From a virus: a DNA stretch of 64,000 nt. The stretch's first letter is position 1, and every line of letters starts with the position of its first letter. Under the pieces are notes generated by a model. The model searched no databases. It was given only the letters and a program-made list of their open reading frames with translations, and was not told the DNA's origin. The position numbers and the translations under genes were made by a program. This document shows positions 28,499 to 38,802 of this stretch, piece after piece. The DNA is taken from positions 64,001 to 128,000 of IMG/VR virus record IMGVR_UViG_3300042887_005324, one strand, 5' to 3'.

Positions 28499-29257
28499 TT
28501 ATTTTAATTTAAATTTTAATTTTAATTCTTTTATTAAATGTGGATGAGCCCATTTTTCATCTAAAATATCAACTTCTACGACCTGTTTGTTGGGTATTAG
28601 GTTGTGTTTCAATTGATAATGATCACCTATAGATGTTGGATCAGATGGTTTATTAACTCTAAAAATACTTCCATCTTCAAGTTGAATAAATAAGGTTCCT
28701 TTTTTATACTTAAATTTGTTGCCATTATTATATTCTATTTCAACATCTTCTTTAACTTTCCAGCCTTTTACTTCATATTTTTTGGAATCAGGGTTATTAT
28801 CACTAAATAATTTATCAAGTTTGAAACTTCTATATTCCATTTGATTCATTACATATAATGGTTTTATTCTCCACTCACAAACACTATTCTTAGACAAGTG
28901 ACATTTAAGAGCCGCCTCATTTGCTTGATGTATTGAATGATATATTTTGTGATTCCAATATGTAGTCCATCCATACCATTCACCTTTATTGTCTTTCCAT
29001 CTTACTTCTAAAGTATATCCATAAGGATTTATATCATCAGCGACAGCTTGACATTTAAAATGAATTGATTCTTCTATTGCCCAATTTTTACCATTAACTG
29101 TGTAATAGTGTTTTGGAGTTACTAATTTTTCTGTGGATGTTCCGGTGATCTCTTTGAAAGAGTTGAGATCTGTGTTTGAATGTGTTTGATAACCTGAGTT
29201 GATATCTTGTCTGGTTAAATTGACAAGTTGAGAATTTTGTGAATTAATCTACATCAT
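28499..29257 (-). CDS. 252-codon gene with in-frame amber (TAG) at codon 3; candidate read-through gene (or pseudogene)
   Basis: ATG ATG TAG ATT AAT... at 29257-29243, in frame with track ORF 28499..28897; about 117 extra open codons with no ATG/GTG/TTG; own AATATATA motif at 29276-29283. Confidence 0.7.
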
Positions 29258-29293
29258 ATTTTTTATTTTTATTTTTATATATTATAAAATTTG

Positions 29294-29374
29294 TGCTTCC
29301 AGGAGGGCACGATCCCCTTTCCTCTGAGGTTAGAATTCAGATTATCCCCACGGATAATTTAAGGATCTGAAAGC
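29294..29374 (-). tRNA. non-canonical tRNA-like RNA with CUA anticodon (putative amber suppressor)
   Basis: Acceptor GCTTTCA(G)/(C)TGGAAGC-A; anticodon arm TCTGA-A-TT[CTA]AC-C-TCAGA; T-like arm GGGG-ATCGTGC-CCTC; tandem with tRNA-CAU and shares its ..GCACAA 3' trailer. Confidence 0.6.
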
Positions 29375-29381
29375 AATTTTG

Positions 29382-29454
29382 TGCGCCCTACTGGGATCGA
29401 ACCAGTGACCCGCTGATTATGAGTCAGCCGCTCTAACCTCTGAGCTAAAAGCGC
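29382..29454 (-). tRNA. tRNA with CAU anticodon (probably Ile2, lysidine type; otherwise elongator Met)
   Basis: GCGCTTT-TAGCTCAGAGGTTAGAGC-GGCTGACT[CAT]AATCAGC-...GGTTCGATCC-..AGGGCGC-A canonical cloverleaf. Confidence 0.92.
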
Positions 29455-29482
29455 TAATTTTTAACAGTTGAGTTTATATTTA

Positions 29483-29512
29483 CAAATATAAAAAGAGTTT
29501 GTTAATTAACAA
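29483..29512 (-). promoter_or_regulatory. Bacteroidota-type promoter driving the tRNA pair
   Basis: TTG-N19-TATATTTG. Confidence 0.65.
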
Positions 29513-29660: not shown

Positions 29661-30626
29661 ATGAAAGTTAAACAAAAAAAAGGCACTAATTTGCCTAGTG
29701 CCTTTATTGTAAATCCAAAAGATAAAGGCAGAAAATCAATCAAAGGAGATAAAATCTATCTCGATAATAATCAAGAATTTGAAATCGAAATCTTTAATCC
29801 TCTAAAAGAATCTGTCTTAGCAGATATTCGTTTGAACGGTAATTCAATTTCAAAGACTGGTCTTGTAATAAAACCAGGTCAACGAGTTTACTTAGATTGT
29901 TTTGTTGATGATAGAAAGAAATTCATATTTCAGACTTATCAAGTTGACGATAATCAAGAATCTATTGATGCTACTGCTGACAATGGCTTATTAGAAGTAT
30001 TTTTCTATAAAGAACAAGCAGTTACTCTCAAAGATTGGAATGATAGATTTCATAAGATCGTGGTTCATGAATACTATCCTGTCTATACAAGATGGTATTC
30101 AAATCCATATTATATCCCGTATTATGGAACAACGCTCACCACTACAAATGTAGTAAATAGTATATACACAACAAATGGTAGTAACACACTTACCGTTGGT
30201 AATTCAAATGTTTCATATTCATCAAACTTTAATGGAAGTTTGACCTCTGGGAGTTTATCATCAAACACTGCTTATTACAATTCACCTGTAGCTGGTTCTT
30301 TTGAAACCGGTAGAGTTGAAAAAGGTGAAAAATCTAATCAGAAATTTGTAGATGTCGATATGGAATTTGAAAAGAACTACATACACCATCTTGTATATCA
30401 AATTCTTCCGAGTTCAAGAAAACCAAAGGATATTAACGATATCTCAAAGTCTAAGAAGATTATGGAGAAACTAAAATCAAATAAGCCACAATTAAATGAT
30501 ATCTTAAAAAGAGAGTCAGAAGATGTAATCGAACTAATTAAAAAACTAGCTGACTTACACTCAGCAGGTATATTAACAGATGAAGAGTTTTCAGATAAAA
30601 AGTCTGAATTACTTAGTAAAATCTAA
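29661..30626 (+). CDS. hypothetical protein with C-terminal SHOCT domain
   Basis: IKKLADLHSAGILTDEEFSDKKSELL matches the SHOCT pattern. Confidence 0.75.
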   Translation: MKVKQKKGTNLPSAFIVNPKDKGRKSIKGDKIYLDNNQEFEIEIFNPLKESVLADIRLNGNSISKTGLVIKPGQRVYLDCFVDDRKKFIFQTYQVDDNQESIDATADNGLLEVFFYKEQAVTLKDWNDRFHKIVVHEYYPVYTRWYSNPYYIPYYGTTLTTTNVVNSIYTTNGSNTLTVGNSNVSYSSNFNGSLTSGSLSSNTAYYNSPVAGSFETGRVEKGEKSNQKFVDVDMEFEKNYIHHLVYQILPSSRKPKDINDISKSKKIMEKLKSNKPQLNDILKRESEDVIELIKKLADLHSAGILTDEEFSDKKSELLSKI

Positions 30627-38521: not shown

Positions 38522-38522
38522 G

Positions 38523-38802
38523 TGATTCCGGATGGATTCGAACCATCGACCCACAGCTTAGACATACCACTATAGCTTTCGCTACCTAATGTTTGTGGTC
38601 TGGACTATATCATCACCTTCAACCTAGTTGTTCAGGTGCTTCCCCCTTAGTCTCTACACACTCCCTCATTTCTGAGGTTTGGCTCGGTATTACCATCAAC
38701 ATTACTTGGAAGGTTTCACCGAATTCGAGAAGTTCTATCTAACTATTTCTAATTAAACGCCCCCTTTGAGGCTGTTGCTCTATCCAACTGAGCTACGGAA
38801 CC
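38523..38802 (-). tRNA. tRNA-Arg(UCU) interrupted by a group I intron (exons 38769-38802 and 38523-38562)
   Basis: Joined exons give GGTTCCGTAGCTCAGTTGGATAGAGCA-ACAGC-CT[TCT]AA-GCTGT-GGGTC-GATGGTTCGAATCCATC-CGGAATCA. Confidence 0.92.
38563..38768 (-). ncRNA. group I self-splicing intron (206 nt, no ORF)
   Basis: 5' exon ends in U and intron ends in G; P AATTCGGTGAAA, Q AATACCGAGCC, R GTAGAGACTA, S GATATAGTCC; GGGGC guide pairs with exon GCCU. Confidence 0.9.

What the first reader, a model, noticed from the sequence alone, without database searches (positions are those of the whole stretch)
28499..29512. Candidate dedicated amber read-through cassette: CUA-anticodon tRNA-like gene directly upstream of a gene starting ATG-ATG-TAG
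Seen in sequence, on the minus strand, in order: a host-type promoter (29483-29512), tRNA-CAU (29382-29454), an 81-nt tRNA-like element with a centred CUA anticodon (29294-29374), a late-type AATATATA motif (29276-29283), an A-rich leader, then ATG ATG TAG. After the TAG the frame stays open for about 250 codons to the stop at 28499. The first ~117 codons after TAG have no stop and no ATG/GTG/TTG, which is unlikely by chance in such AT-rich DNA. The genome is not globally recoded: TAG ends the ORFs at 499, 8996, 18565 and 48291, and the 1600-2200 aa ORFs contain no internal TAG. Known: some huge phages reassign TAG genome-wide with suppressor tRNAs. Inference: here a suppressor is physically paired with one amber-gated gene, so the protein is made only when the phage tRNA is expressed and charged. 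This could be a timing switch, a tRNA-integrity sensor, or a way to insert a special residue near the N-terminus.
Basis: partly seen in the sequence, partly recalled or inferred. Interest (0 to 1): 0.92.

Follow-up and report, generated by a model that had tools for sequence, protein, structure and literature searches.

The report
Amber-gated phage gene with remodelled tRNA
A large lake phage that uses the normal genetic code keeps a UAG stop as the third codon of one gene, directly behind its own oddly built UAG-reading tRNA; the same pairing recurs in many giant phages, so the gene is probably made only when that tRNA overrides the stop.

Summary
Confirmed, and not an assembly error: two independent lake samples carry the same TAG. 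The locus is a derived form of a jumbo-phage operon: CUA-tRNA, then a Pth2-like gene starting ATG-(NNN)1-3-TAG-RT, gene X, and an HD-like gene with the same start. Here an in-frame deletion fused the gated Pth2-like start to X. X became directly gated in 3-4 lineages and otherwise follows the gated Pth2-like gene.

Pth2-like genes found by protein search alone are gated in 28 of 30 loci. All 8 near-complete genomes checked also encode a CUA tRNA, some over 100 kb away. Two near-complete relatives have just two gated genes each; this 174-kb fragment has one.

The RNA belongs to a family that ARAGORN and Rfam miss here: 8-bp acceptor, 4-bp T stem, and an extra loop pairing with the variable region (18 of 20 sequences; permuted mean 3.1).

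Best reading: dedicated amber suppression competing with host RF1 (about 0.8). That the gate is a regulated switch is inferred only (about 0.4). No experiment exists, and X's function is unknown. I found no published description. This scan noted the Pth2-like/amber pairing before on other DNA. Cultured phage pT24 offers a test system.

The parts
29483..29512 (-). Host-type promoter of the Bacteroidota -33/-7 kind (TTG-N19-TATATTTG), inferred to drive both tRNA genes
   Evidence: Sequence; same element upstream of the CUA tRNA in L002, L004, L005, L051, L054; consensus TTTG/TANNTTTG in PMC6847099; function not tested
29382..29454 (-). Canonical tRNA with CAU anticodon (Met or Ile2); a passenger, absent from this position in other lineages
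   Evidence: ARAGORN, Rfam RF00005 66.5 bits; absent between promoter and CUA tRNA in L002, L004, L005, L051
29294..29374 (-). tRNA(CUA) with 8-bp acceptor, 4-bp T stem, extra loop pairing with the variable region, long D hairpin, A73, no encoded CCA; anticodon at 29333-29331
   Evidence: Alignment of 22 members; pair 8-65 kept in 22/22 with GC/GU/CG/AU types vs canonical 49-65 in 3/22; RNAalifold gives 8/4 unaided; extra helix 18/20 vs permuted mean 3.1, max 10; held-out members score 61-83 bits
29276..29283 (-). AATATATA phage promoter motif (late-type by inference) between tRNA and start codon
   Evidence: Upstream of 46/165 ORFs vs 0 controls, including very long ORFs; same position in L002, L028, L033, L050, L051
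29258..29275 (-). A-rich leader without Shine-Dalgarno sequence
   Evidence: only 5/165 ORFs have an SD-like word; A-rich initiation in Bacteroidetes, PMC6847099
29246..29257 (-). The gate: ATG ATG TAG ATT (TAG at 29251-29249)
   Evidence: TAG in independent samples; same motif on Pth2-like, HD-like and X genes of relatives
29150..29248 (-). Remnant of the first ~33 codons of the ancestral Pth2-like gene, fused in frame to gene X
   Evidence: tblastn 53-55% identity to Pth2-like residues 1-33 at 29248-29165, and DNA alignment to L051/L054; ancestral protein hits Pfam PTH2 above cut-off and solved Pth2 structures
28499..29149 (-). Gene X body: conserved ~230-aa phage protein of unknown function; read-through product 252 aa
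   Evidence: 98 homologues; purifying selection upstream of the first alternative start; no Pfam, PHROG or clear fold match

Best explanation
A dedicated amber-suppression gate. Inferred steps: the phage transcribes tRNA(CUA) from a host-type promoter; host enzymes trim it, add CCA and charge it; on the gated mRNA the ribosome meets UAG after 1-4 codons, where charged tRNA(CUA) competes with host RF1. If RF1 wins, a 2-4 residue minigene product is released and the gene is off; if the tRNA wins, the full protein is made. Shown by sequence: the gate is confined to one operon (Pth2-like, X, HD-like), sits in a context that favours suppression (+4 purine), and always comes with a CUA tRNA in near-complete genomes. 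In this phage the Pth2-like gene was deleted and its gate fused to X, which is the only gated gene in the 174 kb held. The most likely purpose (inferred, about 0.4) is to make the operon's output depend on the ratio of charged, intact tRNA to RF1, so that a tRNA/ribosome-rescue operon reports the state of translation. The inserted residue cannot be determined; acceptor pairs 2-7 vary freely while G1:C72, A73 and the anticodon are fixed, which points to a synthetase that reads the anticodon and discriminator (Lys, Gln or Tyr; from memory).
For: TAG at codon 3 in X homologues of 96, 60, 52 and 50% identity, each directly behind a CUA tRNA or its 3' part. Pth2-like genes found by protein search alone: 28 of 30 loci gated, 22 of 24 distinct by my count; 5 further phage records all gated. 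HD-like gene gated in 16/24; most of the rest are in frame with the Pth2-like gene. Of 13 ungated X genes, 12 follow a gated Pth2-like gene and the 13th follows a 5'-broken one, several with an ATGA stop/start overlap. CUA tRNA present in 8/8 near-complete genomes: G003, G001, LR745206.1, LR756500.1, LR756501.1, LR756502.1, LR756504.1, pT24; the tRNA body may be 8/4-type or canonical, only the anticodon is constant. Census: two gated genes each in G003 and G001, which have 59 and 35 ordinary TAG stops. +4 base is a purine in 42/42 gated Pth2-like genes vs 53/105 terminal TAGs, p = 3e-10 uncorrected for relatedness; +4 purine, above all A, favours amber suppression (PMC6266110). Codons 4-120 are under purifying selection: 5 synonymous vs 2 non-synonymous variable codons in the window clade, p about 0.005; dN/dS 0.22 vs L051 for codons 46-120. 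8/4 tRNAs can suppress UAG in E. coli (PMC5389517).
Against: No expression, charging or suppression data; the one RNA run gives contigs only. [quoted passage not shown] The window's copy has a deviant T loop (AUCGUGC). ATT follows the TAG in 33/42 cases, which could serve as a start codon. Part of the locus set came from patterns that demanded tRNA plus TAG, and related phages are not independent. One GC-rich phage has CUA tRNAs beside an ungated Pth2-like gene (L098). G002 (83% complete) has gated genes but no CUA tRNA was found. Selection in codons 46-120 of the L005 clade was not significant within the clade. I did not test phages lacking a CUA tRNA as a negative set.
Confidence: 0.8

Rival explanations
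1. Read-through is real but constitutive: the tRNA suppresses all the time, and stop and tRNA persist as a mutual lock-in with no regulatory role; X acquired the gate passively through deletions. This shares the read-through step with the best explanation and differs only in purpose.
For: The fusion in the window is a simple in-frame deletion. The tRNA has a host-type promoter and so should be present before the late-type motif fires. The +4 context is the one that maximises suppression.
Against: A neutral TAG should revert or spread; instead it is kept at codons 2-5 across proteins of 30-100% identity and stays limited to 1-2 genes per genome. The HD-like gene has its own copy of the gate. 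X stayed under the gate through 3-4 rearrangements.
Confidence: 0.35
2. Stop-restart: the ribosome terminates at UAG and re-initiates at the adjacent AUU; the tRNA-like RNA does something else.
For: ATT follows TAG in 33/42 Pth2-like, 15/16 HD-like and 8/8 X genes; AUU is a known rare start codon (own knowledge).
Against: GTA (4), AGA, AAA, GCC and GTT also occur after the TAG. The stop is always TAG, never the far commoner TAA. It does not explain a CUA tRNA in 8/8 near-complete genomes.
Confidence: 0.08
3. The RNA is an uncharged A-site decoy or a nuclease/Pth2 substrate that acts on the minigene without inserting a residue.
For: Unusual fold; related E-loop tRNAs were not charged in vitro and some allo-tRNAs are inactive (PMC5389517).
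Against: Fully canonical CUA tRNAs fill the same slot in G001, LR756504.1, LR756501.1 and pT24. The 12-bp acceptor branch and A73 are strictly kept.
Confidence: 0.07
4. The amber inserts a special (non-standard) residue needed near the N-terminus.
For: Unusual tRNA body, possibly orthogonal.
Against: TAG position varies (codons 2-5), lies in an unconserved N-terminus of three unrelated proteins, and most X homologues lack the position altogether. No Glu/Gln-type synthetase in G000 or the complete G003; other synthetase families were not searched.
Confidence: 0.03
5. Sequencing error or recent nonsense mutation in a decaying gene.
For: Most X homologues start without TAG.
Against: Identical TAG in independent samples, gating in 3-4 lineages of X, purifying selection.
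Confidence: 0.01

Closest known systems
Stop-codon recoding in phages with phage-encoded suppressor tRNAs (code 15; bioRxiv 10.1101/2021.08.26.457843, PMC9523058)
   Same: Phage tRNA(CUA) in a standard-code host; in-frame TAG proposed to regulate translation of phage genes.
   Different: There TAG is spread through many structural and lysis genes. Here TAG remains a stop genome-wide and only 1-2 genes hold one TAG, at codons 2-5.
Orphan CUA suppressor tRNAs of standard-code jumbo phages, e.g. XacN1 (PMC5852040)
   Same: CUA tRNAs in a code-11 jumbo phage that also encodes a peptidyl-tRNA hydrolase.
   Different: The authors tested read-through of terminal stops and found no target gene; here a conserved N-terminal target is identified. 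I did not examine XacN1 itself.
(8/4) allo-tRNAs and the (8/4) E-loop tRNA1 (Mukai et al., PMC5389517; review PMC7609411)
   Same: 8-bp acceptor plus 4-bp T stem, extra loop between acceptor and D stem, long D stem with small loop.
   Different: Allo-tRNAs have a long variable arm and G73/U73; the tested E-loop tRNA has U73 and GCU, probably from Acidobacteria. This family has a 5-nt variable region that pairs with the extra loop, A73, CUA, and a defined target codon. Their figures and supplements were not available for a direct sequence comparison.
prfB (RF2) autoregulation at an early in-frame stop (own knowledge; comparison also made in earlier scan notes)
   Same: An early in-frame stop turns release-factor competition into control of a translation-related gene.
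   Different: prfB bypasses UGA by +1 frameshifting with no dedicated tRNA; here the frame is kept and a tRNA is supplied.
Jumbo-phage PTH2 (PMC7824862)
   Same: [quoted passage not shown]
   Different: No amber gate is mentioned there; the window keeps only about 33 codons of it.

Membership tests
Genome-wide TAG recoding (code 15) | In-frame TAG in many genes and higher coding density under code 15 | tested here: not met
   92.6% vs 93.4% density; TAG ends 11/154 ORFs; one early-TAG gene
Genome-wide TAG recoding (code 15) | Phage-encoded tRNA with CUA anticodon | tested here: met
Genome-wide TAG recoding (code 15) | Phage release factor (seen in some members) | tested here: inconclusive
   No PF00472 match in G000, but the record is 68% complete; none in G003, G001, pT24; RF-like 178-180 aa genes in two others
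Amber suppressor tRNA | U33-CUA-A37 in a 7-nt loop on a paired stem, 12-bp acceptor branch, discriminator | tested here: met
   Invariant columns and pair counts; bottom anticodon pair open in 16/22
Amber suppressor tRNA | Charged in vivo and decodes UAG | not testable with these tools
   Needs acid gel, MS or reporter
Canonical tRNA (RF00005, 7/5) | 7-bp acceptor, 2-nt connector, 5-bp T stem | tested here: not met
   No Rfam or ARAGORN hit; 49-65 pair in 3/22
(8/4) allo-tRNA | 8/4 acceptor branch | tested here: met
(8/4) allo-tRNA | Long variable arm and G73/U73 (Ser identity) | tested here: not met
   4-6 nt variable region, A73 invariant
(8/4) E-loop tRNA1 | Extra loop between acceptor and D stem on an 8/4 frame | tested here: met
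   against the description
(8/4) E-loop tRNA1 | Sequence homology to the published members | not testable with these tools
   Supplement not held
Pyrrolysine system | tRNA-Pyl fold (short connector, 6-bp anticodon stem) and pylS/pylBCD | tested here: not met
   Connector is long, not short; pyl genes not searched. ARAGORN's 'Pyl' label only means a CUA anticodon
Pth2 (ancestral gated gene) | PF01981 above cut-off, similarity to solved Pth2 | tested here: met
   26.1 bits vs cut-off 23; E 8e-9 to 2zv3
Pth2 (ancestral gated gene) | Catalytic Lys/Asp/Thr | tested here: inconclusive
   Lys aligns to Tyr and Asp to Glu; residue roles are from memory, the paper was not held
Pth2 (window gene) | Whole domain present | tested here: not met
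   Only about 33 codons remain; no PF01981 match in G000

The most novel reading that the evidence does not exclude
A natural, portable one-codon translational switch: a phage-only, structurally remodelled tRNA (8/4 with an extra helix) competes with host RF1 at an N-terminal UAG, so that a tRNA/ribosome-rescue operon is expressed according to the state of the translation machinery; the 12-nt gate can be moved onto unrelated genes, and may be the foothold from which genome-wide TAG recoding starts.
Probability: 0.3. Interest if true: 0.92.

Novelty: new variant of a known kind. Interest (0 to 1): 0.8.

Why it matters
It gives the unexplained suppressor tRNAs of standard-code jumbo phages a conserved target and shows a state between the standard code and full recoding. 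Gene callers truncate or miss these genes (RefSeq pT24 starts the gene 45 codons late), and tRNA finders miss or mislabel the 8/4 family. If charged, the tRNA is a new natural architecture that the ribosome accepts, of use for genetic code expansion. A cultured Bacteroidota phage with the gate makes the question directly testable.

Tried and rejected
ARAGORN at relaxed thresholds and with introns: only noise, no CUA element. Exact-pattern search of viral contigs for the window's RNA: 0 hits. Pairing of the extra loop with the T loop: full 3-bp match in only 12/20, against 18/20 for the variable region, so not preferred. Single-sequence folding is weak evidence (z -1.74). Function of X: nothing from Pfam, PHROGs, ESM Atlas, Foldseek or VIA-align (best Z 5.7 over 58 residues; model pTM 0.37); absence of a match does not show a new fold. 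HD-like protein: weak Pfam HD hit below cut-off, only non-significant likeness to poly(A) polymerase. Apparent counter-example G004 (rated complete, gate but no CUA tRNA) matches LR756504.1 at 100% over the locus tested, and that 636-kb record has a CUA tRNA in a part G004 lacks. RNA run X20 has a low-depth contig ending at the TAG; not taken as proof of expression. One search used a mis-registered acceptor stem; only its row 59-75 is used. Ten literature searches found no description of the cassette; subscription journals are mostly not covered.

Full report
Observation. The window lies in a 174-kb phage record, rated 68% complete, found in lake and freshwater metagenomes of about a dozen studies. 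It uses code 11: TAG ends 11 of 154 ORFs and code 15 adds under one point of coding density. After removing candidates that lie inside other ORFs, this is the only early-TAG gene in the record. The TAG is not an error: contigs from two other studies cross it with no differences, and a 96%-identical protein in ENA translates only with TAG read as a residue. The host is probably a member of Bacteroidota. This is inferred from the TTG-N19-TATATTTG promoter, the lack of Shine-Dalgarno words (PMC6847099) and a related gene in a Tenacibaculum phage.

The gene. The read-through product has 98 homologues of about 230 residues. But homologues of 60, 52 and 50% identity also need TAG read through at codon 3, each directly behind a CUA tRNA or its 3' part. 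Fetching contigs through ungated homologues showed the ancestral layout: promoter, CUA tRNA, AATATATA motif, a Pth2-like gene starting ATG-NNN-TAG-ATT, gene X, and an HD-like gene again starting ATG-NNN-TAG-ATT. In the window, the first ~33 codons are the Pth2-like start, joined in frame to X; the HD-like gene is not in the record. Of 21 distinct X genes, 8 are gated directly. Of the other 13, 12 follow a gated Pth2-like gene and one follows a copy broken at its 5' end; several overlap it by ATGA, which suggests translational coupling. The tree needs 3-4 changes for direct gating, at least 2 forced by well-supported branches. Codons 4-120, upstream of the first alternative start, are under purifying selection: 5 synonymous vs 2 non-synonymous variable codons in the window clade (p about 0.005, small numbers), and dN/dS 0.22 against L051 for codons 46-120. 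X has no family or fold match, so its job is unknown.

The gate. Among 30 loci found with the Pth2-like protein alone, 28 have an in-frame TAG at codons 3-5; one lacks it and one is doubtful. Five further phage records are all gated, including cultured Tenacibaculum phage pT24, where RefSeq starts the gene 45 codons downstream. The HD-like gene is gated in 16 of 24; most of the rest are in frame with the gated Pth2-like gene. The base after TAG is a purine in all gated genes but in only 53 of 105 terminal TAGs. A +4 purine, above all A, favours amber suppression (PMC6266110). The complete 373-kb G003 and the 95% complete 385-kb G001 each hold two gated genes and one CUA tRNA, beside 59 and 35 ordinary TAG stops. 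All eight near-complete genomes examined carry a CUA tRNA, in four cases more than 100 kb from the operon. One apparent exception proved to be a fragment; G002, 83% complete, remains without a detected tRNA. Related phages are not independent points, and some loci came from patterns that demanded both parts, so I rest the case on the protein-only set.

The RNA. ARAGORN and Rfam miss the window's copy. An alignment of 22 members shows an 8-bp acceptor and a 4-bp T stem: pair 8-65 holds in 22 of 22 with four pair types, the canonical 49-65 pair in 3 of 22, and RNAalifold finds the same fold unaided. An extra loop of 7-11 nt follows the acceptor. Three of its bases form Watson-Crick pairs with the variable region in 18 of 20 sequences, in many different combinations; 20,000 permutations gave a mean of 3.1 and a maximum of 10 (relatedness not corrected). 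Three members not used in the model score 61-83 bits and keep two or three of these pairs. G1:C72, A73 and U33-CUA-A37 are invariant. The nearest published form is the (8/4) E-loop tRNA1 of Mukai et al., which has another anticodon and discriminator and was not charged in vitro by the two enzymes tried; other 8/4 tRNAs did suppress UAG in E. coli (PMC5389517; PMC7609411). Canonical CUA tRNAs occupy the same role in several genomes, so the anticodon, not the body, is what is conserved.

Mechanism. Shown: the anatomy, its conservation, its restriction to one operon, and selection on the read-through product. Inferred: transcription, processing, charging, and competition with RF1 at the UAG. With RF1 winning, the gene is a minigene of 2-4 codons, the stage at which peptidyl-tRNAs drop off and need a hydrolase (abstracts of PMC2490762 and PMC10192219); this may be why a Pth2-like gene is the ancestral target, though its catalytic residues are only partly kept. 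I put read-through by this tRNA at about 0.8, and a regulated switch, as opposed to constitutive lock-in, at about 0.4. A plain timer is weakly supported: the tRNA has a host-type promoter and the gene has its own late-type motif, so transcription alone would set timing. A special residue is unlikely because the position is variable and dispensable.

Prior knowledge. Recoded phages use CUA tRNAs for many genes. XacN1 has CUA tRNAs with no target found. Jumbo-phage PTH2 is known without mention of a gate. Ten searches found no description of this cassette. Earlier unchecked notes of this scan report the tRNA plus gated Pth2-like pairing in other genomes; I tested it independently. What this locus adds is the transfer of the gate to an unrelated gene after loss of the Pth2-like gene, and the covariation-supported 8/4 tRNA family.

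Verdict. Real and conserved; a new variant of suppressor-tRNA recoding, narrowed to a one-operon gate; no experimental proof. Interest 0.8.

Noticed in passing
L190:2456-3409 (Tenacibaculum phage pT24, NC_049383.1): Gated 317-codon gene with a Pth2-like N-terminal part starts ATG AAA TAG ATA; RefSeq annotates it from 2591 only. A canonical CUA tRNA lies about 2.5 kb upstream. Two 'tRNA-Undet' genes nearby have an enlarged anticodon arm.
   Followed up: partly
window 28820-28845 (-), residues ~140-147 of the product: Gene X family carries a conserved R-x-[FY]-K-[IL]-D-x-L-L stretch resembling the R-[DN]-x-x-[IL]-x-x-[IL] tag that first readers noted on many small proteins of this genome.
   Followed up: no
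window 38522-38802 (-): ARAGORN with introns calls a tRNA-Arg(UCU) with a 206-nt intron.
   Followed up: no
L034:1030-1080, L035:1920-1945, L037, L047: In some phages the CUA tRNA is followed by a short gated leader peptide (7-24 codons, some ending in Pro-Pro) instead of, or ahead of, the gated Pth2-like gene.
   Followed up: no
L030:2195, L048:1302: A putative homing-endonuclease-like ORF inserted behind the tRNA carries its own ATG AAA TAG GTT start, with the gated Pth2-like gene behind it.
   Followed up: no
L016:2015 (-), L025:3588, L022:3473, L015:2840 (-): Further unrelated genes with TAG at codon 3-4 near canonical CUA tRNAs.
   Followed up: no
L087:2690-2775, L088, L092, L100: A third CUA tRNA architecture with a reduced D region, missed by ARAGORN, beside gated Pth2-like/HD-like fusions.
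   Followed up: no
G004:190529-190843; LR745206.1:48139-48459: Short (178-180 aa) RF-1-domain genes in two phages with the gate, the size of ArfB-type rescue factors (identity from memory).
   Followed up: no
window 29679-29705 (-): Terminator-like hairpin upstream of the tRNA promoter; a close strain (L057) has an HNH gene inserted in this interval.
   Followed up: no
G004 (IMG/VR record behind L093): Rated 100% complete from inverted repeats but matches the 636-kb LR756504.1 at 100% over the locus tested and lacks part of it; the completeness label is unreliable.
   Followed up: yes
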